From Candidatus Methylomirabilota bacterium (GTDB lineage Bacteria; Methylomirabilota; Methylomirabilia; Rokubacteriales; CSP1-6), in NCBI GenBank assembly GCA_036556905.1, contig DATBIM010000156.1:2210-66209 (forward strand): a stretch of DNA of 64,000 bases, written 5' to 3'. This document shows, piece by piece, positions 12,889 through 27,186 of this stretch; position 1 is the stretch's first letter, and each line of letters begins with the position of its first letter. Position numbers and translations under genes: made by a program. The notes beneath the pieces are model-generated. The model worked only from the letters and a program-made list of their open reading frames with translations, ran no database searches and was not told the origin of the DNA.

Positions 12889-13434
12889 GTGAGCGACGAT
12901 CCCGGTCCACGGTTCTTGGCGCCACACACCATCCACTTCTGCCCGCTGTGCGGCGGGCCCCTGGGCCGGGAGGCCGTACCGCCCGATCAGCGCGAACAGG
13001 CCGTGTGCTCGGCGTGCGATTTCGTCTTCTATCTCAATCCCAAAGTCGTCGCGGGCGCCATCCTCGAGCAGGACGGACGCGTGCTCCTCACCCGCCGCGC
13101 CATCAACCCCGGACGCGGCTTGTGGACCTTTCCGGGAGGCTTCGTCGATTTCGGTGAGACGGTGACAGATGCCGCGCTGCGCGAGACCTTCGAAGAGACG
13201 GGCCTTCACGTGGAGCTGACCGGCCTGCTGAACGTGTACTCCTACCCCGGCGCGCCGGTGATCATCGTCTACCGGGCGCGGGTGACGGGTGGGACCTTGA
13301 CGCCCTGCGACGAGAACGACGCCCTGGAGTGGATGAAGCTGTCGGAGATCCCCTGGGAGGCCCTGGCCTTCCCGTCCACGCGGGAAGCGCTGCGGGAGTG
13401 GGTGGGGCTCCGCGGCGAGCTGCCGGCCGGCTAG
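12889..13434 (+). CDS. NUDIX hydrolase with N-terminal zinc ribbon
   Basis: Nudix box GGFVDFGETVTDAALRETFEETG; CxxC…CxxC at the N-terminus; GTG start. Confidence 0.75.
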   Translation: MSDDPGPRFLAPHTIHFCPLCGGPLGREAVPPDQREQAVCSACDFVFYLNPKVVAGAILEQDGRVLLTRRAINPGRGLWTFPGGFVDFGETVTDAALRETFEETGLHVELTGLLNVYSYPGAPVIIVYRARVTGGTLTPCDENDALEWMKLSEIPWEALAFPSTREALREWVGLRGELPAG

Positions 13435-13877
13435 GCGACGGAGGAAAGCCGGGTCGGCAGCTGCAGCGTGGCCCGGCCGGTGACGACTTTCTCGCCCCGC
13501 TGGTTCTCGGCCCACACCTCCACCTCGACGACGTGCAGATCCCCCGTGGCCGTCTTGGCCAGCACGCGGGCCCGACACGTCACCGTGTCCTTGAGCCGCA
13601 CGAGCGCGGCGAAGCGGACGCTCAGCGTGCGCACCGTCCCGGGGCCGGCCCAATCGGTGAGGGCCTGGGCCACGAAGCCCATCGAGAGCATCCCGTGGGC
13701 GAACACCCCGCCCATCCCGGCGGCGCGGGCAAACTCCTCGTCCTGGTGGATGGGGTTGAAGTCCCCGGAGGCCCCGGCGTAGCGGGTGAGCTGGATCTGC
13801 TGGAGCGGCCCCTTGACGAGGGGCGGACCCTCGGCGCCCACCGCCACGTCTTCGTAGTAAAGCTTGCCGTACTTCAC
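13431..13877 (-). CDS. MaoC-like (R)-specific enoyl-CoA hydratase/dehydratase (hot-dog fold)
   Basis: …GDFNPIHQDEEFA…GGVFAHGM… MaoC motif. Confidence 0.7.
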   Translation of the reverse strand: MKYGKLYYEDVAVGAEGPPLVKGPLQQIQLTRYAGASGDFNPIHQDEEFARAAGMGGVFAHGMLSMGFVAQALTDWAGPGTVRTLSVRFAALVRLKDTVTCRARVLAKTATGDLHVVEVEVWAENQRGEKVVTGRATLQLPTRLSSVA

Positions 13878-14329
13878 AGCCGCACCACCGTCACCTGGCG
13901 CATGGTGGCCACGATGTCGTTGTCCCGATCGGTCACCGTCATCTCCCGCACCACGAAGCCCAGGGGGCCGGTGCGCCCGGGCTTCTCGTAGACATCGACC
14001 ACCCGCGTCCGGCAGAGCAGGGTCTCGCCCGGCGTGAGGGGACGGAACGACGCGAACTCCTGCTCGCCATGGAGCACACGGGAGATGTCCACGTCGAGAT
14101 CGCGGAGCAGCGCCGCCGAGTCGGAGGCCTCGTCGCGAAAGGTGACGGGAAAGGTGGGGGGCGCGATGATGTCGCCCCAGGGCGAGGCCCGCCCCACCGC
14201 GTCGTCGAGGTAGTGCGCGTTGAGATCGCCGATGGCCTGGGCGAACTCCTTGATCTTCACCCGCTCCAGGGTGACCGCGAAGGGCGGGTACTCCTTGCCG
14301 ACGATCTCCTTGTTGAGAGCGATGGGCAT
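13874..14329 (-). CDS. MaoC N-terminal-like hot-dog domain protein (HadA-like partner)
   Basis: 151 aa from Met 14329 (ATGA overlap with the upstream stop). Resembles the N-terminal pseudo-hot-dog half of two-part dehydratases. Confidence 0.5.
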   Translation of the reverse strand: MPIALNKEIVGKEYPPFAVTLERVKIKEFAQAIGDLNAHYLDDAVGRASPWGDIIAPPTFPVTFRDEASDSAALLRDLDVDISRVLHGEQEFASFRPLTPGETLLCRTRVVDVYEKPGRTGPLGFVVREMTVTDRDNDIVATMRQVTVVRL

Positions 14330-14724
14330 CAAGTCTGGCCCTTCTTCATGGCCCGCTCCAGGAATGTCTGGATGTCGGAGACCACGAAGCGCTCGTGGCG
14401 TCCCTCCGCGATCTTCTCCTTGTCGTCCCAGGCCTCCACCGCGAAGAGGTAGCGCCGACCGTCGGCCTGCAGGAGCGTGGCCCGGGCCCGCACTCGCATG
14501 CCGACCGGGGTGGCGGCCAGGTGCCGCATCTCCACCATCGTGCCCACGGTGCCCGCGCCCGGCGGCAGGTGGGGGTGGAGCACCGCTCCGGCGGCGTTCT
14601 CCAACAATCCCACCACGAACGGCGTGGCGAAGACGTGGACGCCCCGGTTGCCCATCGCGTCCGCAGTGTGGTCTGGCGTGACCGTGAGGGCGACCTCGGC
14701 GCTGGCTCCCGGGTCGAGATGCAT
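14329..14724 (-). CDS. hot-dog fold thioesterase-superfamily protein
   Basis: …VHVFATPFVVGLLENAA… pattern typical of small acyl-CoA thioesterase-like proteins. Confidence 0.5.
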   Translation of the reverse strand: MHLDPGASAEVALTVTPDHTADAMGNRGVHVFATPFVVGLLENAAGAVLHPHLPPGAGTVGTMVEMRHLAATPVGMRVRARATLLQADGRRYLFAVEAWDDKEKIAEGRHERFVVSDIQTFLERAMKKGQT

Positions 14725-14736
14725 GGCGCGCCACTA

Positions 14737-15468
14737 TTACCGCGAGATGAGGAGGAACTGCAAGCCCATGAGCACGAGAAAGACCTCCACCACGGCCAGG
14801 AACGCGCGATCGCTCATGCGGTCGAGGAGGCCACGGCCCAGCCAGGCCCCGACGAACATGACGGCGCCCAGTACCAGGCCGACGGCGACTGTCTCCCAGG
14901 TCATCAGGGCGAAGCCGGCGAAGGCCAGGCCCCGGGCCACGTGCATGCCCAGGGCGCACACGGACTCGGTTCCGATGTAGGCGCCGCGCCGCAGGCCGTA
15001 GGCGAGAAAGAACGGAGAGGCCACGGGGCCGGTGGCCACGACGATGCCGGACAGCACCCCGACGAGCGCGCCTACCACCGGGAAGTGGCGAAGCCGTACG
15101 GTGACGTTCCGGGTGAGCAGCAAGCGCCGCAGCGGCACCGAGGCGATGAGGAAGGCGCCCATGACCCAGCGCAGCGATTCTCCCGGGGCTCCGGCATAGA
15201 AGACGACGCCGAGGGCGGTCGCGGGGACGGCGCCGGCCAGGAAGCGGAGGGCCACGCCGGGGTGCACGTCACGTCGGCTCCACCAGATCCGCGACAGGTT
15301 GCCGATGAGCATGGTGACGGTGAGCACCGGCGCGGCGGCGCGGACGCCGACGGCCCAGACGAGCAGGGGCAGCAGGATCAGTCCGGCGCCGAAGCCGGCG
15401 ACGCCCCCGACGACCGAGCCGAGCACCGCACCGCCGAGCAGAAGAGCCCAGCCGAGGGGGTCAGGCAT
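14737..15468 (-). CDS. TSUP family sulfite/anion exporter (TauE/SafE)
   Basis: Two-repeat membrane protein with Gly-rich TM helices typical of TauE/SafE. Confidence 0.7.
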   Translation of the reverse strand: MPDPLGWALLLGGAVLGSVVGGVAGFGAGLILLPLLVWAVGVRAAAPVLTVTMLIGNLSRIWWSRRDVHPGVALRFLAGAVPATALGVVFYAGAPGESLRWVMGAFLIASVPLRRLLLTRNVTVRLRHFPVVGALVGVLSGIVVATGPVASPFFLAYGLRRGAYIGTESVCALGMHVARGLAFAGFALMTWETVAVGLVLGAVMFVGAWLGRGLLDRMSDRAFLAVVEVFLVLMGLQFLLISR

Positions 15469-15483
15469 CGCGCGTCCGCACTC

Positions 15484-16680
15484 GTGCCATCATACGCGAT
15501 CGTGGGCAGGGGGCTGGCGGGAGCGGGCGCCTTCGTGGTCTCGCTCGACTCCACCGTGAACATCGCCTTCCCGGCGATGGCGGCGGCCTTCGCCGTCCCG
15601 GCCGAACGGGTCCGCTGGGTCGTCATCAGTTACGTGCTCACGTACGCGCTGGTATCGTTCATCGGCGGCGCGGCGGGCGACCGTGTGGGCCACCGTCCGG
15701 TGTTCCTGGCCGGGATCGGGTTGAGCGCGCTGGGCTTTCTCGTCTGCGGCACGGCCACGAGCTTCACCATGCTGCTGGCCGGGCGCGTGCTGCAGGGGCT
15801 GGCGGGTGGGCTGGTCTACGGCACCGCGCCGGCGCTGGCGACGCTGGCCGCGGGGCCGGAGGCGCGGGGTCAGGCGCTCGGCTTCCTCAATGGAGCCATC
15901 GGCCTGGGCTTCGCCATCGGCCCCCTGATTGCGGGTGGAGTCGTGGACCGCGGAGGCTGGGAAGCGGTGTTCCTCCTGCGCGTGCCCCTGGCGGTGACCG
16001 TGCTGGCCTGGGCGATCGCGGCCGCTCCCCCAGTCCGGGGGCGTGTGGGCTCGCCGGTCTTGTTCCTGCGCGACGTCGCTCGCGCCAGCGTACTTGGCGC
16101 AGGCGCTCTCGCCTTCCTGGCCCAGGCCGGTATCTTCGCCATCTGGCTGCTCGGACCGTTCTATCTGATCGAGCGCCGGGGCCTGGACACGTTCTCGGGA
16201 GGCATGCTCTTCATGCTGACCCCATTGGGCACGGCCCTCGCCGCGACTCCGGCGGGCTGGCTCGCGGATCGGCTGGGGCCGTGGGCTCCCATGGCCGCCG
16301 GGCTCGGCCTGGAGGCGGCCGGACTGGGCGTGCTCTCCACCGCCGGCCCGGTAACGTCACCTGTCGTTCTGGGACTTGCCCTCGGCGCGGCCGGGCTGGG
16401 GCTGGGTCTCTTCCAGGTGCCCAACATGACGGCGTTGATGGCGCAGTTCCCGGCCGGCCAGCAAGGGGTCGCCGGAGGCTTTGCGTTTCTGGCCCGAACA
16501 CTGGGAACGGTCGCCGGCGTAGCGGTCCTCGCCCAGGTCTTCGCCGCGGTGCGGGTGGCCGCCGGCTTCGACGCCGCCTTCGCGCGGGCTTGTCTGGCGG
16601 CCGCCACCGCCGTCGGCCTGGCCGCGCTGGCAGCGCTCATCGTCGGGGTGGCCAGGCCACGGCGGGACCCGAGCGCGTGA
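15484..16680 (+). CDS. MFS transporter
   Basis: 12-TM MFS pattern. In-frame GTG start at 15484; no ATG available. Confidence 0.6.
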   Translation: MPSYAIVGRGLAGAGAFVVSLDSTVNIAFPAMAAAFAVPAERVRWVVISYVLTYALVSFIGGAAGDRVGHRPVFLAGIGLSALGFLVCGTATSFTMLLAGRVLQGLAGGLVYGTAPALATLAAGPEARGQALGFLNGAIGLGFAIGPLIAGGVVDRGGWEAVFLLRVPLAVTVLAWAIAAAPPVRGRVGSPVLFLRDVARASVLGAGALAFLAQAGIFAIWLLGPFYLIERRGLDTFSGGMLFMLTPLGTALAATPAGWLADRLGPWAPMAAGLGLEAAGLGVLSTAGPVTSPVVLGLALGAAGLGLGLFQVPNMTALMAQFPAGQQGVAGGFAFLARTLGTVAGVAVLAQVFAAVRVAAGFDAAFARACLAAATAVGLAALAALIVGVARPRRDPSA

Positions 16681-16691
16681 GCGGGGGCGCG

Positions 16692-17687
16692 ATGCCGGCG
16701 GGGGGCGTCGTCGTCTGGTTGCTTCTGGCGGTGGCCTTCGTGGCGCTTGATCTGAGCGGGATCGCGGAAGGTCTGGCGCTCCCGGTTCCCCTGGTCGTCG
16801 CGGCGGTGGTCGCTCGCGTTCTGGAGCACACACGCTGGGCCCGAGATCACGTAACGGGGCTGGCCCTCTCCGTGGCCGCGGTCTGCGCGGCGCTCGCTGC
16901 CATCACCTGGGCGTTCGAGCTAGAGCCCTTGGGGCTGGGCCCGGCCGAGATTGCCCTGGCCGCTCTCCTGGTGGCCGTGTTCGCCTCCCTGCTGGCGCCG
17001 ACGCGGCTCCGCGCCGCGCTGCTCCGCCCGTTGGGACTCGACCCCGCGTCGCCCGTCCACGCCGTGGCCGTCGTGGCCATGCTGCTGACCGTGCTGTCCT
17101 CGATCGCGCTGTTCGCGCAGCTGCAGGAGGAGCCCTCGGCGAGCGTGCCGTTTCACGCCACCGACTCGCTGGTCGCGGTGGCCTCCGACCTGGCCCTGGC
17201 CCTGGCCGGCATCGGCTTTCTCCTCACGCGCGACGCGCGAGCGGCTCTGGGCCGGCTCGATGTGCGGCCTCTCCGGCCGCGGCAGGTGGGATGGGCGCTG
17301 GCCACGGGCCTCCTGCTCAACGTCGCGGTGGCCGCTATGGAGTGGGTCGAGAGCCTGGTGCTCCCCGGGGTTCACGCGCTCGAGGACAGGTTCGACTACG
17401 AGTTCATCGGCATTCCCCCCGTGGTGGGTGCGGCCCTGGTGTCGCTGGCCGCCGGGGTGGGCGAGGAGGTCCTGTTTCGCGGGGCGCTCCAGCCCCGACT
17501 GGGCATCGGGTTGAGCGCCGCCCTATTCGCGATCCTCCACGTCCAGTACCAGATTCCCGGTATCCTCATGATCTTCGTCGTGGGCGTGGCTCTCGGCCTC
17601 GTGAAGCGGCGGACCTCGACGACGTTTACGATCGTCGTGCACGTGGTCTACGATCTGGTAGCGTTCCTGGCCGACATCTCGACCTAG
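16692..17687 (+). CDS. CPBP family intramembrane metalloprotease (CAAX protease / Abi-like)
   Basis: EEVLFRG and HVQYQ motifs in a multi-TM protein. Confidence 0.7.
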   Translation: MPAGGVVVWLLLAVAFVALDLSGIAEGLALPVPLVVAAVVARVLEHTRWARDHVTGLALSVAAVCAALAAITWAFELEPLGLGPAEIALAALLVAVFASLLAPTRLRAALLRPLGLDPASPVHAVAVVAMLLTVLSSIALFAQLQEEPSASVPFHATDSLVAVASDLALALAGIGFLLTRDARAALGRLDVRPLRPRQVGWALATGLLLNVAVAAMEWVESLVLPGVHALEDRFDYEFIGIPPVVGAALVSLAAGVGEEVLFRGALQPRLGIGLSAALFAILHVQYQIPGILMIFVVGVALGLVKRRTSTTFTIVVHVVYDLVAFLADIST

Positions 17688-17698
17688 GAGGAGCCGCG

Positions 17699-19309
17699 AT
17701 GGAGGTGCTGAGCCCGCTGGGGGTGGCTGACACCCGGCCCCGGCCACTGGCCAAGCGTCCGGCCCGCCTCGCCGGCTGCCGGGTCGCCGTCCTCGACAAC
17801 TCCAAGCCCAACGCCGACGTGCTGCTGGAACGGCTGGCCGAGCTGCTCGTAGCCCGGGCCGGTGTGGCCGAGGTCCGCCGCTGGCGCAAGCCGGGCAGCT
17901 CCCGAGCGGCCGAGGAGATCGACGCGATCGTCGCGGCCGCCGACGTCGTCCTCACCGGCTCGGCGGACTGAGGCTCCTGCACGTCGTGGAGTATCCACGA
18001 CGCGGCGCAGATCGAGGGGCGGGGAGTCCCCACCGTTGTCCTCGGCACCGACCTGTTCGCCTCGCTGGGCCACAGTGCCGCCGCGGCGCTGGGCCTGCCC
18101 GACCTGCCCCTCGTGACCGTCGCCCACCCGATCGGGGGCGTCGATCCCCATGCCGTGGCGGCCCGCGCTGACGGCGTCCTCGACGCCGTCGTGGCGGCGC
18201 TGACCCGAGCGCCGGCGCACTCGCCCGCCGCGGCGCCCGGTGCGGTGGCCCTGCTGGCCGCCCCCGATGACATCGACGCCTTTCAGGAATTTGCTCTGGC
18301 CGAGGGCTGGGGCGACGGGCTTCCCGTGCTCCCGCCCACTCCTGAGCGAGTCGCGCGTGTGCTGGCCGGCCAGCGTGGCGACCAGGTCGTGGCCACCTTG
18401 CCGCCTCGGCGGGGCGTGGCGACGCTCGAGGCCATTGCGGTCAACGCCGCGCTGGCCGGCGCCGGGCCCGAGCAACTGCCCCTGATCGTGGCCGCCGTGC
18501 GCGCCGTCGCCGACCCCCGCTTCAACCTGGACGCGATCCAGGCCACCACCCACCCCTGCACGCCGCTGGTGATCGTCAACGGCCCCCTCGCTCGGCGCCT
18601 GGGCGTGCACAGCGGAGCCAACGCGCTGGGCCAGGGTCACCGGGCCAATGCGGTCGTGGGCCGCGGGCTGCGGCTCACGCTGCAGAACGTGGGCGGGGCC
18701 CGGGCCGGGCAGGGCGACCGCGCCACGCTCGGGCACCCCGGCAAGTTCACGTACTGCGTCGCCGAGAACGAGGCGGAGTCGCCCTGGGAGCCGCTGCACG
18801 TGGAGCGCGGCTTCGATGCCGCGGCGAGCTGCGTGACGGTGTGCGGTGCCGAGGCGCCCCACAACGTGAATGACCACGGCTCGACGTCCGCCGAGGCTTT
18901 GCTGCTGGCCCTGGCCGGCACCGCGGCGACCACCGGCAACAACAACATCTATCTGGGCGGCGAGCCGCTGATCCTCCTCGGTCCCGAGCACGCGCGGACG
19001 ATCGCCGGATCGGGCTGGTCCAAGCGCGATCTCAAGCGAGCATTGTTCGACCGCGCGCGGGTGCGCCTGGGGGCCTTCAGCGCGGAGAACCTGGCCCGCT
19101 TCGCCACGATCGATCCCGCGCGCTTCCGCGGCCGCTCGCCCGACGACACCGTCACCGTGGCCGTCACGCCGGACGACGTGATGGTGGTGGTGGCGGGGGG
19201 GCCCGGCAAGCACTCCGCCATCGTCCCCACGTTCGGCGCGACGCGCGCGGTGACCGTGCCCGTCGAGGCCCCGGGCGACGCGCCGGTTGCGGGGCCCCGC
19301 TCGCGGTGA
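17699..19309 (+). CDS. UGSC-motif selenoprotein fused to a ~400 aa domain of unknown function (in-frame UGA = Sec at 17969-17971)
   Basis: Same frame continues through TGA 17969-71 (…DVVLTGSAD-U-GSCTSW…). Both flanks are homologous to the stand-alone UGSC protein at 20429-20959. A hairpin follows the UGA. RBS AGGAGG before ATG 17699. Confidence 0.6.
17978..18010 (+). promoter_or_regulatory. candidate bacterial SECIS hairpin for UGA 17969
   Basis: GTCGTGG-AGTAT-CCACGAC (extendable), starting about 11 nt after the UGA. Confidence 0.5.
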
Positions 19310-19340
19310 TAGCGTGGCCGGCGCGAAAGGGAGGAGCCTC

Positions 19341-20432
19341 ATGGCGATCACGTTGACCTCACCGCGCCACGCCGTGGCGAACCTGGATGACGCTATCGAG
19401 TTCTGCTTCCAGCAGGGCTGGAGCGACGGGCTGCCCGTGGTGCCCCCCACCGAGGCCAAGGTGCAGGCCATGCTGGACGCCGCCAAGCTCGATCCCCAGC
19501 ACCAGGTGGCCTACGTGGAGCACCGGGCGGTATCCATCACCGCCGAGAAGGTGGCGATCAACGCGGTGATGGCCGGTTGCCTGCCCGCGTACATGCCGGT
19601 GGTGGTGGCTGCCGTCGAGGCCATCGGGGATCCTCGGTGGTCGTATCATGGCCCGGGCACCTCCACCGCCGGCGCCGGCGTGCTCATGATCGTGAACGGT
19701 CCCATTCGCCGTGAGCTCGACATCAACTGCGGCGACAACCTCTTCGGCCCGGGCTGGCGGTCGAATCTGACCATCGGCCGCGCCGTCCGCCTGATCATGC
19801 GCAACGTGTGCGGCTCGTGGCCGGGACGGCTCGACCGGGGGACGCTGGGCCATCCCGGCAAGCTCTCCTACGTCATCGGGGAAAACGAGGAGGAGAGCCC
19901 GTGGCCGCCGCTCCACGTCGAGCGGGGGCTGCGCCGCGAGCAGAGCGCGGTGACGGTGATGGCGGCGGAGGCGCCGCACCAGATCTACAACCAGCTCTCC
20001 AGCACCGCCGAGGGCGTCCTCACCACGCTCAGCGACGCCATGCGGATCTCCGGCAACGTGATGGGGCAGCCGCACTATGCCCTGATCCTCGCCGGCGAGC
20101 ACATGCGGACGATCGCCGGGAGCGGGTGGGGCAAGGACCAGATCCGGCGCTTCGTGTGGGAGCACACGCAGAACTCCCACGCCCACCTGCGGCGGACCGG
20201 TCGTATGGCGGGTCCCGTGCAGCCCGGCGACGAGGACAGGCTGCGACCGCTGGTGGAGAGCCCGGATGATATCCTGGTTGTGGCCGCCGGAGGCCGGGCC
20301 GGAAGCTTCTCGGCCTACATCCCCGGCTGGGGCAGCAAACGTTCCTCGCAGGCGGTGACAGTGGTGGTCGGAGGTGAGGTGAGCCGCTCGCCGAGCCGAC
20401 CCTTCAACGAGGCAAAGGAGGTCAGGCAATGA
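19341..20432 (+). CDS. conserved protein of unknown function, paralog of the C-terminal domain of the 17699-19309 gene
   Basis: Shared blocks with the upstream gene: GW(S/G)DGLPV(V/L)PPT, TLGHPGK..Y…ENE.ESPW.PLHVERG, TIAGSGW. RBS AGGGAGG before ATG 19341. Confidence 0.55.
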   Translation: MAITLTSPRHAVANLDDAIEFCFQQGWSDGLPVVPPTEAKVQAMLDAAKLDPQHQVAYVEHRAVSITAEKVAINAVMAGCLPAYMPVVVAAVEAIGDPRWSYHGPGTSTAGAGVLMIVNGPIRRELDINCGDNLFGPGWRSNLTIGRAVRLIMRNVCGSWPGRLDRGTLGHPGKLSYVIGENEEESPWPPLHVERGLRREQSAVTVMAAEAPHQIYNQLSSTAEGVLTTLSDAMRISGNVMGQPHYALILAGEHMRTIAGSGWGKDQIRRFVWEHTQNSHAHLRRTGRMAGPVQPGDEDRLRPLVESPDDILVVAAGGRAGSFSAYIPGWGSKRSSQAVTVVVGGEVSRSPSRPFNEAKEVRQ

Positions 20433-20959
20433 TCGAGATCCTCGACCCTACCACCCCGGCCGCCCGCCAGGCCATCGCCTATGCGCCGCGGCCCGGATCA
20501 CTCACGGGCAAGCGTGTCGCGTTGATCGAGAACACCAAGTTCAACTCCGATCGGCTGCTCCAGAAGATCGGCGACATCATGGTCAGGGAGTATGGGGCCG
20601 CCTCCACCCGGATGTGGCGCAAGAAGAACGCCAGCGTGCCGGCGCACGAGGAGATCATCGCCGAGGTGCGCCGAACCTGCGACGTGGTCGTCGCCGGCAT
20701 CGGTGATTGAGGGTCCTGCTCGTCGGGCAGTGTGCTCGACGGAATCGTGCTCGAGAAGGCCGGCGTTCCCTCGGCGTCGATCGTGACCGACGTGTTCGAG
20801 CGGACGGCCCGGGCCATGGCCGAGCAGTGGGGCCTCCCGACCTACCGGTTCCTCATGATGCCGCACCCCATCGCCAACCTCAGCGAGGCCGAGCTGGACC
20901 AGCGAGCTCGCGCGATCGTCTCGGAGGTGGCCAAGCTCCTCCTCCAGGGTCAGGAGTGA
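20429..20959 (+). CDS. UGSC family selenoprotein, stand-alone (in-frame UGA = Sec at 20708-20710)
   Basis: …DVVVAGIGD-U-GSCSSGS… Reading frame continues to 20959. Homologous to both flanks of the UGSC region of the 17699 gene. ATGA overlap with the upstream gene; RBS AGGAGG. Confidence 0.6.
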
Positions 20960-25747: not shown

Positions 25748-26446
25748 GTGCTCCGATCCATGTCGAGAGTACCGATCTCGCTTGCGCTGGCCACCGTGCT
25801 GATCACCGTCGCCACGGGCGTGGCGTATCTCGCCCTGCGCTGGGAGCCGGGGGACGAGACGGCAACCCCGATCGCCGCTCAGCCGCCGCGCGCCGAGCCG
25901 ACGGCGCCTTCAGCGTCGGCCCCGCCGCCGGCGGACACTCCGTCCCCCCGCCCGGCCAAGCCGCGGCCCGGCCGCCAGCTCGCTCTCGACGCCGCCATGC
26001 GCGAGCTCGACCTGATCCAGCCGTCGCGGACGCGCGCCGTGCAGGATTTCACGCTGCCGCTGGTGGGCGGCAAGTCGTTCCGCCTGACCGGCCATCGGGG
26101 GCAGATCCTGCTCATCAATTTCTGGGCGACCTGGTGCCCGCCCTGCCTCGAGGAGATGCCGGCGCTGGAGCGCCTGTGGCGTCAGCATCGGGACCACGGC
26201 TTCGTCCTGCTCGCCGTGTCGCTGGACACCGATTCCGGGCTCGTGGGTCCCTTCCTGGCCCGGCATCGCCTCACCTTCCCGGTCGCGCTCGACCCCAAGT
26301 ACGAGGTGGCCAATCTCTACGGCGTGCGGGCGCTGCCCGCGACCTTCGTCGTCGATCGGCTCGGGAACCTGGCCGCGCTGGCGCTGGGACCGCGAACCTG
26401 GGACAATGACGCGGCGCATTCCCTGGTGGAGGCTCTGGCGAAATAG
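25748..26446 (+). CDS. TlpA/ResA-like thiol:disulfide oxidoreductase (membrane-anchored thioredoxin fold)
   Basis: WATWCPPC active site with an N-terminal TM anchor. Confidence 0.7.
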   Translation: MLRSMSRVPISLALATVLITVATGVAYLALRWEPGDETATPIAAQPPRAEPTAPSASAPPPADTPSPRPAKPRPGRQLALDAAMRELDLIQPSRTRAVQDFTLPLVGGKSFRLTGHRGQILLINFWATWCPPCLEEMPALERLWRQHRDHGFVLLAVSLDTDSGLVGPFLARHRLTFPVALDPKYEVANLYGVRALPATFVVDRLGNLAALALGPRTWDNDAAHSLVEALAK

Positions 26447-26448
26447 GG

Positions 26449-27186
26449 ATGGGACAGTCGGTCGGCGTGGCAGTGGCGTTCAGCGCGGGCCTCTTCTCGT
26501 TCTTGTCGCCCTGCGTGCTGCCGCTGTTCCCCTCGTACCTGTCCTTTATCACTGGCATGTCGGTGGCCGACCTCACGGGCGACATCGCCCCCGCTGCGCG
26601 CCGGCGCGTGCTCCTGCACGCCCTGACCTTCGTGGCCGGCTTCTCGATGGTCTTCATCTCGCTGGGAGCGACCTTCAGCGCGGCCGGGCAGTTCCTGCTC
26701 GAGCATCGTGAGTCGATCCGCCGCCTGGGCGGCGCGCTGATCGTGCTCTTCGGCCTCTACATCGCCGGGGTGTTTCGCCTGGGCCTCTTCGGCCGCACCG
26801 CACAGCTCCAGTTCCGTGAGAAGCCGGCGGGTTATGCTGGCTCGCTCCTGGTGGGCATCACCTTCGCGATTGGGTGGACGCCCTGCGTGGGTCCCATCCT
26901 GGGGGCGATCCTGTCGTTGGCCGGTACCGCGGAGACGGTGCAGCGGGGTGTGGGCCTCCTCATCGCCTATTCGGCGGGCCTGGGTGTGCCCTTCCTGCTC
27001 TCCGCGCTGGCGCTCGGCTCGTTCCTGCGCTTCTTCAAGCGCTACCGCCCGTTCATCCCCGTCGTCGAGCGCGCCGCCGGGGTCCTGCTCGTCGTGGTGG
27101 GCGTGCTCGTCTTCACGAATTACTACACGGTCCTCAACGCCTGGGCCATCTCCCTGACGCCCGAGTGGCTGCTCAAGCGGCTCTAG
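26449..27186 (+). CDS. ccdA: cytochrome c-type biogenesis protein CcdA (DsbD-like thiol-disulfide transporter)
   Basis: FLSPCVLPLFP and …TPCVGPILG… Cys pair. Confidence 0.75.
   Translation: MGQSVGVAVAFSAGLFSFLSPCVLPLFPSYLSFITGMSVADLTGDIAPAARRRVLLHALTFVAGFSMVFISLGATFSAAGQFLLEHRESIRRLGGALIVLFGLYIAGVFRLGLFGRTAQLQFREKPAGYAGSLLVGITFAIGWTPCVGPILGAILSLAGTAETVQRGVGLLIAYSAGLGVPFLLSALALGSFLRFFKRYRPFIPVVERAAGVLLVVVGVLVFTNYYTVLNAWAISLTPEWLLKRL

What the first reader, a model, noticed from the sequence alone, without database searches (positions are those of the whole stretch)
16692..20959. Undescribed candidate system: CPBP protease followed by a duplicated, rearranged two-part module [UGSC selenoprotein ~ unknown 400-aa domain] [paralog of that domain] [UGSC selenoprotein]
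Four genes sit back-to-back (gaps of 12 nt, then ATGA overlaps). Gene 1 (17699-19309) reads through an in-frame UGA and fuses a ~175 aa UGSC-motif domain to a ~400 aa domain 'X'. Gene 2 (19341-20432) is a clear paralog of X alone. Gene 3 (20429-20959) is a stand-alone UGSC domain, again with in-frame UGA at the identical motif position. The N-terminal halves align, and so do the post-U regions. I cannot assign X to any known family, but it is Gly-rich with conserved Cys/His. The arrangement looks like a duplicated Sec-dependent redox pair (small UxxC thiol-redox partner plus unknown partner or substrate enzyme), with one copy fused. A membrane CPBP protease is immediately upstream.
Basis: partly seen in the sequence, partly recalled or inferred. 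Interest (0 to 1): 0.88.

Follow-up and report, generated by a model that had tools for sequence, protein, structure and literature searches.

The report
Selenoprotein UGSC paired with unknown enzyme
Two copies of a known but functionally mysterious selenium-containing protein (UGSC) each sit next to, or are fused with, a large uncharacterised protein family of apparently new fold, and this pairing recurs across many phyla, which gives the first concrete lead to what UGSC does.

Summary
Gene 1 (17699-19309) and gene 3 (20429-20959) each carry an in-frame UGA in a D-U-G-S-C motif, score above the curated cut-offs of the known UGSC selenoprotein family, and have a covarying SECIS-like hairpin 13 nt after the UGA. 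Gene 1 fuses UGSC to a ~360-aa domain X1. Gene 2 is its paralog X2 (41% identity). X matches no Pfam, NCBIfam or PDB entry, and its confident AlphaFold model has no significant structural neighbour.

In 80 species-level loci from many phyla, 66 of 88 X domains have a UGSC gene adjacent or fused. Of 74 UGSC hits across all loci held (window included), 69 have TGA at the motif. Other X relatives are fused to thioredoxin-like, ferredoxin-thioredoxin-reductase-like or small CxxC domains.

Most likely X is a thiol-dependent enzyme, probably a reductase, and UGSC is its dedicated selenothiol redox partner. The substrate is unknown.

The CPBP protease is not part of the system (0 of 80 loci). UGSC is a described family, and a UGSC/"Unknown_1" fusion was noted in 2008. 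X1 and X2 have partitioned the family's two conserved cysteines, which hints at a heteromer.

The parts
17699..19309 (+). Gene 1: UGSC~X1 fusion selenoprotein (536 aa with Sec at residue 91). SD AGGAGG lies upstream and the gene ends in a tandem stop TGA-TAG.
   Evidence: Continuous frame except one TGA. UGSC HMM covers residues 2-169. More than 100 ortholog clusters are 411-424 aa ORFs that begin just after the UGA and run through the UGSC C-half into X1.
17969..17971 (+). UGA read as selenocysteine (U of D-U-G-S-C) in gene 1
   Evidence: TGA is at this motif position in 69 of 74 UGSC hits across all loci held, window included.
17982..18002 (+). SECIS-like hairpin 1: CGUCGUGGA-GUA-UCCACGACG, 9 bp, starting 13 nt after the UGA
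   Evidence: Fold. Conserved position with compensatory changes across 66 genes; loop G-U invariant.
18233..19306 (+). X1 domain of gene 1 (unannotated family X; the divergent copy with A80, C112, C178, C207 in X2 numbering)
   Evidence: 41% identity to X2. Cys pattern is fixed in 41 of 41 orthologs for A80, C112 and C178, with C207 in over 70%.
19341..20432 (+). Gene 2: X2, stand-alone member of family X (363 aa; C22, C80, C157; V178). SD GGGAGGAG.
   Evidence: AlphaFold model has pLDDT 88 and pTM 0.89. No Pfam, NCBIfam or PDB match.
20429..20959 (+). Gene 3: stand-alone UGSC selenoprotein (176 aa, Sec at residue 94). Its start overlaps the gene 2 stop (ATGA). SD AAGGAGG.
20708..20710 (+). 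UGA read as selenocysteine in gene 3
20721..20741 (+). SECIS-like hairpin 2: CGUCGGGCA-GUG-UGCUCGACG, 9 bp, starting 13 nt after the UGA
   Evidence: The hairpin is degraded in Cys-form genes.

Best explanation
The window carries two copies of a conserved two-component module made of X plus UGSC. One copy is fused (UGSC1~X1, gene 1). The other is an operon pair (X2 then UGSC2, genes 2 and 3). UGSC is a small flavodoxin/Rossmann-like domain. Its Sec-x-x-Cys motif sits at the N-terminus of a helix and would cycle between a selenol/thiol state and a selenenyl-sulfide state. X is the catalytic or substrate-binding component. It is a thiol-dependent enzyme, most likely a reductase, and its near-universal Cys80 (often with Cys178) would be re-reduced by UGSC in each turnover. 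UGSC itself would be recharged by a thioredoxin-reductase-like flavoprotein or another cellular reductant. SHOWN: the genes are selenoprotein genes by sequence criteria; X and UGSC are linked across phyla; X is fused to four unrelated disulfide-reductase modules. INFERRED: the direction of electron flow, the roles of the Cys residues, and an X1/X2 heteromer suggested by the partitioned Cys. SPECULATIVE: the substrate is a small carboxylic acid or acyl-CoA-related compound.
For: SEC DECODING. The UGSC HMMs match across the UGA. A 9-bp hairpin lies at +13 nt with an invariant loop G-U. Compensatory changes occur at pairs 19-29 (UA 45, GU 16, AU 3), 21-27 (CG 55, GC 11) and 18-30. The covariation score is 0.206 against 0.059 in shuffles (0 of 500 reach it). 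The hairpin and loop GU are lost in the four Cys-form genes. LINKAGE. Of 88 X domains in 80 species-level loci, 55 have UGSC immediately downstream (median gap 78 nt), 11 have it upstream or fused, 14 have none, and 8 lie at contig ends. No other neighbour family occurs in more than 14 of 82 loci. FUSIONS. Among 150 diverse X representatives there are 21 Sec-type UGSC~X, 6 X~UGSC, 7 full UGSC~X, 5 with the CxxC domain Z in various arrangements, and 8 with other N-terminal extensions; several of these extensions are Redoxin/thioredoxin-like (CPTC, CATC, CPTT) and one is a ferredoxin-thioredoxin-reductase beta chain (76 bits). CONSERVED RESIDUES. C80 is 95% conserved and C178 is 84% conserved across 145 X domains. 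UGSC FOLD. The model has pLDDT 90, with the motif at a helix N-terminus. REDUCTANT. A thioredoxin-reductase-like Pyr_redox_2 gene is divergently adjacent in two of the three Cys-form Burkholderiales contexts examined (Advenella L083 and Paraburkholderia L086; not in L084).
Confidence: 0.6

Rival explanations
1. Sec (or Cys) of UGSC is itself the catalytic nucleophile acting on a substrate held by X, as in glycine or D-proline reductase protein B. Alternatively it acts as a Michael-type nucleophile in an isomerase or lyase acting on unsaturated carboxylates. In this view UGSC is a catalytic subunit and not merely a reductant.
For: UxxC is also the motif of GrdB and PrdB (Table 2 of PMC2398784). 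Sec strongly predominates over Cys in this family: 69 versus 2 in the loci here and 255 versus 21 in the GOS data, which suggests chemistry that really benefits from selenium. Contexts in Burkholderiales and Natrialba are rich in CoA-transferases, acyl-CoA dehydrogenases, hydratases and lyases. X has weak subdomain resemblance to class-I fumarate hydratase and PrpD/IRG1, and it has conserved Arg residues.
Against: There is no detectable sequence similarity to Pfam GRDB, even at E<=10, in 56 members. The interchangeability of UGSC with thioredoxin-like and FTR-like modules fits a generic reductant role better. The genomic contexts are not conserved overall.
Confidence: 0.2
2. X and UGSC together bind a metal or cofactor, with Sec, its partner Cys, and the Cys/His residues of X as ligands. 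This would be a metalloenzyme, or a metal or selenium/sulfur trafficking pair.
Confidence: 0.12
3. The CPBP intramembrane protease, UGSC and X form one functional system. For example, the protease might process or mature one of the partners.
For: The CPBP gene ends 11 nt before gene 1 on the same strand. The same order is seen in the closest relative L001.
Against: A CPBP homolog is present in 0 of the 80 species-level X loci. Other Rokubacteria loci (L003, L005, L007) keep the neighbouring MFS gene but not CPBP. No neighbour cluster corresponds to CPBP.
Confidence: 0.03
4. The UGAs are ordinary stops, and the arrangement is split or decayed genes and not selenoproteins or a fusion.
For: Gene callers in public data split every ortholog at the UGA. 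No Sec machinery is visible in the window.
Against: The protein sequence downstream of the UGA is conserved and matched by the family HMMs. TGA sits at exactly this codon in 69 UGSC hits from many phyla. The hairpin covaries. Cys-form homologs are full-length. Coding GC3 is 0.92 on both sides of each UGA.
Confidence: 0.03

Closest known systems
UGSC-containing selenoprotein family (Pfam PF24696, NCBIfam NF041046), including the 'UGSC/Unknown_1 fusion' of Zhang & Gladyshev 2008 (PMC2398784)
   Same: Genes 1 and 3 are members by HMM score, motif, in-frame UGA and SECIS. The literature reports a fusion of UGSC to a conserved unknown domain that has a conserved Cys, which is very likely X.
   Different: The literature treats UGSC as an orphan of unknown function with a 'likely Trx-like fold'. 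Here the model is flavodoxin/Rossmann-like and not a Trx fold. The near-obligate operon pairing with X, the alternative redox partners of X, and the paired modules with partitioned Cys are not described in the library I could search. The identity of Unknown_1 with X could not be verified because Figure S1A is stored only as an image.
Thioredoxin-dependent terminal reductases with dedicated or fused redoxin modules (for example Trx-MsrA/MsrB fusions, peroxiredoxin-glutaredoxin hybrids, ArsC); from my own knowledge
   Same: The logic is the same. A catalytic Cys enzyme appears in different lineages stand-alone, next to, or fused with a small dithiol reductant. Here the modules are UGSC, Redoxin-like, FTR-B-like or Z fused to X.
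   Different: X has no sequence or fold relationship to Msr, Prx or ArsC. The usual partner is a non-Trx-fold selenoprotein, and the substrate is unknown.
Glycine, sarcosine, betaine and D-proline reductase protein B (GrdB and PrdB selenoproteins with their GrdE and PrdA partner subunits); from my own knowledge plus Table 2 of PMC2398784
   Same: A UxxC selenoprotein works with a larger non-seleno partner encoded next to it. Reducing power comes from the thioredoxin system.
   Different: There is no detectable similarity of UGSC to Pfam GRDB, and X has no similarity to any solved structure. The hosts are mostly aerobic or facultative heterotrophs, not Stickland fermenters. There is no evidence for a pyruvoyl group.
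Ferredoxin:thioredoxin reductase catalytic subunit (Pfam FeThRed_B)
   Same: In one X relative (P0288) it occupies the same N-terminal position as UGSC, which implies an equivalent electron-donor role.
   Different: It is not present in this window, and it is an Fe-S protein unrelated to UGSC.

Membership tests
UGSC family (PF24696 / NF041046) | Whole-domain HMM score above the curated cut-off | tested here: met
   Gene 1 scores 169.8 bits (Pfam) and 137.5 bits (NCBIfam). Gene 3 scores 207 and 144.7 bits. The cut-offs are 25 and 125.
UGSC family (PF24696 / NF041046) | U/C-G-S-C motif at the conserved position, at the end of a beta-strand and the start of a helix | tested here: met
   The motifs are SAD-U-GSC and IGD-U-GSC. 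The motif position is seen in the model of a 66%-identical homolog.
Bacterial selenoprotein gene (Sec-decoding UGA) | In-frame UGA followed within about 11-37 nt by a stem-loop with G in the apical loop (the bacterial SECIS criteria as I recall them from Zhang & Gladyshev 2005) | tested here: met
   A 9-bp stem starts 13 nt after the UGA, with loops GUA and GUG. Covariation is seen across 66 genes. The stem is lost in Cys forms.
Bacterial selenoprotein gene (Sec-decoding UGA) | Host encodes selA, selB, selC (tRNA-Sec) and selD | not testable with these tools
   There is no tRNA in the 64-kb window. The rest of the genome is not available.
Bacterial selenoprotein gene (Sec-decoding UGA) | Selenium actually incorporated into the protein | not testable with these tools
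   This needs 75Se labelling or mass spectrometry.
Thioredoxin-fold oxidoreductases (the fold suggested for UGSC in PMC2398784) | Trx fold (beta-alpha-beta-alpha-beta-beta-alpha) with CxxC at the N-terminus of helix 1 | tested here: not met
   [not shown]
GrdB/PrdB selenoprotein B (Pfam GRDB, PF07355) | Sequence similarity to the GRDB model | tested here: not met
   No GRDB hit at E<=10 in any of 56 UGSC sequences. No PDB sequence hit with the profile.
Any described family for domain X (Pfam-A, NCBIfam, PDB) | Significant HMM, sequence or structure match | tested here: not met
   [not shown]
[4Fe-4S] hydro-lyases (class-I fumarate hydratase, serine dehydratase; the best weak fold hits for X) | Three conserved Cys ligands and overall fold match | tested here: not met
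   [not shown]
CPBP/Rce1-like protease as a component of the module | Conserved co-location with X and UGSC | tested here: not met
   The gene at 16692-17687 is a CPBP protease (PF02517, 50 bits), but homologs occur near X only in L001 and in 0 of 80 survey loci.

The most novel reading that the evidence does not exclude
X plus UGSC is a previously unrecognised, widespread class of two-component selenoenzyme. Its catalytic subunit has a new fold (more than 5,000 clusters at 50% identity). It is served by a dedicated non-thioredoxin-fold selenothiol carrier and performs a reduction, or a Sec-nucleophile reaction, on an as yet unknown small-molecule substrate. In Methylomirabilota it has evolved into an X1/X2 heteromer with one composite active site, as suggested by the partitioned Cys80 and Cys178.
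Probability: 0.4. Interest if true: 0.8.

Novelty: new variant of a known kind. Interest (0 to 1): 0.62.

Why it matters
UGSC has been listed since 2007-2008 among the most abundant selenoprotein families of aquatic microbes (255 Sec forms against 21 Cys forms in the GOS data). It was still called functionally uncharacterised in a 2026 review.

This work shows that UGSC is almost always encoded with, or fused to, one specific unannotated protein family. The same family is served elsewhere by thioredoxin-like or FTR-like modules. That turns an orphan selenoprotein into a testable enzyme-plus-reductant system.

Cultured organisms carry the Cys-form operon: Advenella kashmirensis, Paraburkholderia sediminicola, Janthinobacterium lividum and Natrialba asiatica. 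They are practical entry points for genetics and biochemistry.

The result also flags a large family (at least 5,282 clusters at 50% identity) that deserves a Pfam entry. Gene callers systematically mis-annotate it, because they split the fusions at the Sec codon.

Tried and rejected
1. Reading Figure S1A of PMC2398784 to prove that Unknown_1 is X. The figure is stored as an image, and motif searches of the sequence supplements found no X motif. Dataset S1 was cut when stored.
2. Foldseek against AFDB50. The library is not on the machine.
3. Structure prediction of gene 3 itself. I used the 66%-identical Cys-form homolog P0391 as the target instead.
4. Co-folding of UGSC with X, or of the full gene 1.
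5. A third conserved component. The small CxxC protein Z follows UGSC in Cys-form Burkholderiales and is fused to X in some relatives, but it is absent from the window and from all 80 survey loci. It was rejected as a core part.
6. CPBP as a system member. Rejected.
7. A GrdB/PrdB relationship for UGSC. No signal.
8. P0132 as a Cys-form full-length ortholog of gene 1. It is in fact a deletion variant that lacks the motif.
9. Rfam has no model that hits here, so the SECIS was assessed by folding and covariation instead.
10. A conserved functional neighbourhood that would name a substrate. Only weak, lineage-specific themes emerged: CoA-transferases, acyl-CoA dehydrogenases, luciferase-like oxidoreductases and TctC.


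Full report
OBSERVATION

The four genes exist as described, with small corrections. Gene 1 (17699-19309, + strand) is a single open frame interrupted only by TGA at 17969-17971, within …VVLTGSAD-U-GSCTSWS…. Gene 3 (20429-20959) has one TGA at 20708-20710, within …VVAGIGD-U-GSCSSGS…. Gene 2 (19341-20432) is uninterrupted.

With U replaced by C, both UGSC parts match the curated models end to end, including the roughly 80 residues after the U. The scores are Pfam PF24696 at 169.8 and 207 bits, and NCBIfam NF041046 'UGSC family (seleno)protein' at 137.5 and 144.7 bits against a cut-off of 125. The C-terminal ~360 residues of gene 1 (X1) and gene 2 (X2) are 41% identical (E 4e-77). The two UGSC copies are 35% identical across the U.

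The upstream gene 16692-17687 is an Rce1-like CPBP protease (PF02517, 50 bits). The junctions are an 11-nt spacer, a 31-nt spacer after a tandem TGA-TAG stop, and an ATGA overlap. Each start is preceded by a strong Shine-Dalgarno sequence. The window has 69% G+C. In a window-wide scan, only these two in-frame TGAs combine coding signal on both sides with a redox motif and a hairpin.

ARE THE UGAs SEC CODONS?

Thirteen nucleotides after each UGA there is a 9-bp hairpin with a three-base loop that begins with G-U. The two paralogs use different stem sequences, CGUCGUGGA/UCCACGACG and CGUCGGGCA/UGCUCGACG, and both pair.

I collected 66 distinct Sec-type UGSC genes from many phyla and aligned the 54 nt that start at the TGA. 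The hairpin is at the same place in essentially all of them, and the loop G23-U24 is invariant. The upper six pairs are almost always formed. Compensatory double changes occur at pair 19-29 (UA 45, GU 16, AU 3, CG 1), pair 21-27 (CG 55, GC 11) and pair 18-30. The covariation score is 0.206 against 0.059 ± 0.010 in shuffles (0 of 500 reach it), and it is far above all slid registers. The stem lies in coding sequence, so part of its conservation is protein-driven. However, in the four Cys-form genes I could inspect at the DNA level, the same peptide region has lost the loop GU and one or two of the upper pairs.

Full-length Cys-form homologs that are 55-66% identical to gene 3 exist in cultured Burkholderiales, where NCBI names them 'UGSC family (seleno)protein'. 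Together these results make Sec decoding very probable. What is missing is the Sec machinery. No tRNA and no Rfam hit occur in the window, and the rest of the genome could not be examined.

IS GENE 1 A FUSION?

Yes. There is no stop between the UGSC C-half and X1. Among the 120 best database relatives of gene 1, nearly all are 411-424 aa ORFs that start a few residues after the UGA, carry a partial UGSC Pfam hit and continue through X1. This is the signature left by gene callers that split a conserved Sec-containing fusion.

The syntenic Methylomirabilota genome GCA_035709005.1 (L001) has the same layout. In other lineages the fusion exists without a UGA, either with CGSC or with a degenerate motif: P0293, P0331, P0371, P0273 and P0292. 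The reverse order, X~UGSC truncated at its UGA, also exists (P0246, P0249).

WHAT IS X?

X is a very large unannotated family. There are more than 7,900 hits among clusters at 90% identity. Among representatives at 50% identity there are 5,282 at E≤1e-3 and 1,239 at E≤1e-30. Every hit that carries a name is called 'hypothetical protein'.

X has no Pfam or NCBIfam match, even when all 80 alignment members are scanned at E≤10. It has no PDB sequence match with a single sequence or with a profile.

Across 145 diverse X domains, the residues conserved at 90% or more include D29, C80 (in A-G-C), R140, N142, R147, N155, E181 and W188. C178 is at 84%, and H192 and H254 are at about 80%.

THE CONSERVED UNIT IS X + UGSC

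A scan of one genome per species returned more than 590 loci. The 80 best span Methylomirabilota, Burkholderiales, Chloroflexota/SAR202, Binatia, Poribacteria, Vicinamibacterales, SAR324, Myxococcota and the haloarchaeon Natrialba asiatica.

Of 88 X domains in these loci, 55 have a UGSC gene immediately downstream on the same strand (median gap 78 nt). Another 11 have it upstream or fused, 14 have none despite room on the contig, and 8 lie at contig ends. Of the 74 UGSC hits across all loci held (the 80 survey loci plus the window and L001/L002), 69 have TGA at the motif (58 UGSC, 7 UGAC, 4 UGGC), 2 have Cys (one is Natrialba, as expected for an archaeon without Sec) and 3 are partial.

After clustering all other neighbours, no family occurs in more than 14 of 82 loci. 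A homolog of the window's CPBP protease occurs only in L001. It is found in none of the 80 survey loci, although the adjacent MFS gene is kept in three other Rokubacteria loci. The protease is therefore a local neighbour and not a component.

WHAT X'S OTHER PARTNERS SAY

Among the 150 diverse representatives:
- 91 are stand-alone X.
- 21 are Sec-type UGSC~X.
- 6 are X~UGSC.
- 7 are full UGSC~X.
- 7 are X~X tandems.
- 5 carry a small CxxC domain, which I call Z (motif A-C-x-x-C-L-V-P-K), at either end.
- 8 have other N-terminal extensions.

Pfam identifies several of those extensions. P0303, P0316, P0355 and P0305 carry AhpC-TSA/Redoxin/thioredoxin-like domains with CATC, CPTC, CPTS and CPTT motifs. 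P0288 carries a ferredoxin-thioredoxin-reductase catalytic beta chain (76 bits). Locus L047 likewise has a CPTC thioredoxin-like domain fused to X.

Four structurally unrelated disulfide-reductase modules thus occupy the same position relative to X. That is the strongest available evidence that X takes reducing equivalents by thiol or selenol exchange, and that UGSC is the usual donor.

THE TWO MODULES IN THIS WINDOW

They are old paralogs and not a fresh duplicate. In other phyla, UGSC copies closer to gene 3 lie downstream of X in 48 of 52 placed cases, while copies closer to gene 1 lie upstream or fused in 7 of 12 placed cases.

The two X copies have partitioned the family's cysteines. All 39 X2-type orthologs have C22, C80 and C157, with A112 and V178 in place of Cys. 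All 41 X1-type orthologs have A80, C112 and C178, 40 of 41 have G157, and over 70% have C207. Family-wide, the pattern at positions 80 and 178 is C+C in 196 domains and C+V in 31 (X2, the single-copy Burkholderiales X and the X~X tandems). A+C occurs only in the 9 X1-type domains.

This complementary pattern, together with the existence of X~X tandem fusions, suggests that X works as a dimer and that X1/X2 form a heteromer. This is inference only.

MECHANISM, WITH LEVELS OF SUPPORT

SHOWN: genes 1 and 3 are selenoprotein genes by sequence criteria; X and UGSC are linked across phyla; X is fused to several kinds of redox module.

INFERRED (confidence about 0.6): X is a thiol-dependent enzyme, most likely a reductase. 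Its Cys80, with or without Cys178, is recycled by the U-x-x-C of UGSC through a selenenyl-sulfide. UGSC is recharged by a thioredoxin-reductase-like enzyme or another reductant.

SPECULATIVE: the substrate is a small carboxylate or an acyl-CoA-related compound. The support is the neighbours in Burkholderiales and Natrialba (CoA-transferase III, acyl-CoA dehydrogenases, hydratases, HMGL-like and fumarase-type lyases, TctC), the conserved Arg residues, and the weak resemblance to dicarboxylate-handling folds. The window's own neighbours (MaoC dehydratase, FlK-like thioesterase, MFS, alpha/beta hydrolase, Opp transporter, Redoxin plus DsbD) give no clear pointer.

The rivals are a Sec-nucleophile catalytic role as in GrdB/PrdB, a metal or cofactor site, a CPBP-linked system, and plain stop codons. 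They are weighed in their own section.

COMPARISON WITH WHAT IS KNOWN, AND NOVELTY

UGSC is a described family. It was first noted in 2007 (PMC1976440), found abundant in GOS in 2008 (PMC2398784), and still listed as uncharacterised in 2022 and 2026 reviews. The 2008 paper mentions a UGSC/'Unknown_1' fusion with a conserved Cys. This is probably X, but I could not verify it.

I found no description of the following in the searchable literature: the near-obligate X-UGSC operon, the alternative redox partners of X, the non-Trx fold of UGSC, the apparently new fold of X, or the paired modules with partitioned Cys. I therefore rate the finding as a new variant of a known kind. It contains known selenoprotein members embedded in an uncharacterised two-component system. 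Interest is moderate to high (0.62), because the result makes the long-open question of UGSC function directly testable.

Noticed in passing
window 25748-27186 (+): A Redoxin/AhpC-TSA thiol-disulfide oxidoreductase (232 aa) is followed by a DsbD_TM membrane electron transporter. The same pair is in the syntenic locus L001. It lies about 5 kb downstream of the module, beyond a divergent Opp transporter. A functional link to X/UGSC is possible but untested.
   Followed up: partly
window 13431-14724 (-): A MaoC-like dehydratase and a FlK-type (fluoroacetyl-CoA-like) thioesterase sit next to a TauE/SafE exporter (14737-15468) and an MFS transporter (about 15496-16680). The 761-aa ORF 14395-16680 listed mechanically is mostly an artefact; only its C-terminal MFS part is a real gene.
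   Followed up: partly
L083 8569-8826; L084 8531-8779; L086 8552-8827: A small 82-91 aa protein (Z) with an A-C-x-x-C-L-V-P-K motif and no Pfam family follows Cys-form UGSC in Burkholderiales. It occurs as an N- or C-terminal domain of X in other lineages (P0245, P0371, P0294, P0315, P0381). One member gives a weak NifU-like hit.
   Followed up: partly
P0132 (metagenomic ortholog of gene 1, 482 aa): This full-length UGSC~X1 ortholog has a ~54-residue deletion that removes exactly the U-G-S-C region. It could be a decayed copy, an assembly error or a Sec-less variant.
   Followed up: no
L009 1111-2661: A Burkholderiales locus carries, upstream of its normal X then UGSC pair, a second and very weakly scoring UGSC~X-like copy (61 and 198 bits). 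It has G80/V178 and an atypical UGAC context without the standard hairpin. It is possibly a degenerating module.
   Followed up: no
L027 5299-5949 and upstream: In one Dehalococcoidia locus without UGSC, X is directly preceded by a protein with a V-C-T-L-C-S-C motif, which is typical of the nitrile hydratase alpha subunit, plus two small ORFs. This was recognised by eye only.
   Followed up: no
P0303, P0305, P0329, P0332 (N-terminal linkers): Thioredoxin-like~X fusions share a short P-G-C-G motif in the linker just before the X domain. This is an extra conserved Cys that is not present in UGSC-type modules.
   Followed up: no
[not shown]
   Followed up: no
public annotations of orthologs (for example L001 6371-6643, 6767-7969, 9035-9316, 9338-9565): Gene callers split every Sec-type UGSC and UGSC~X gene at the UGA into two 'hypothetical proteins'. 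Database lengths and architectures for both families are therefore systematically wrong.
   Followed up: yes
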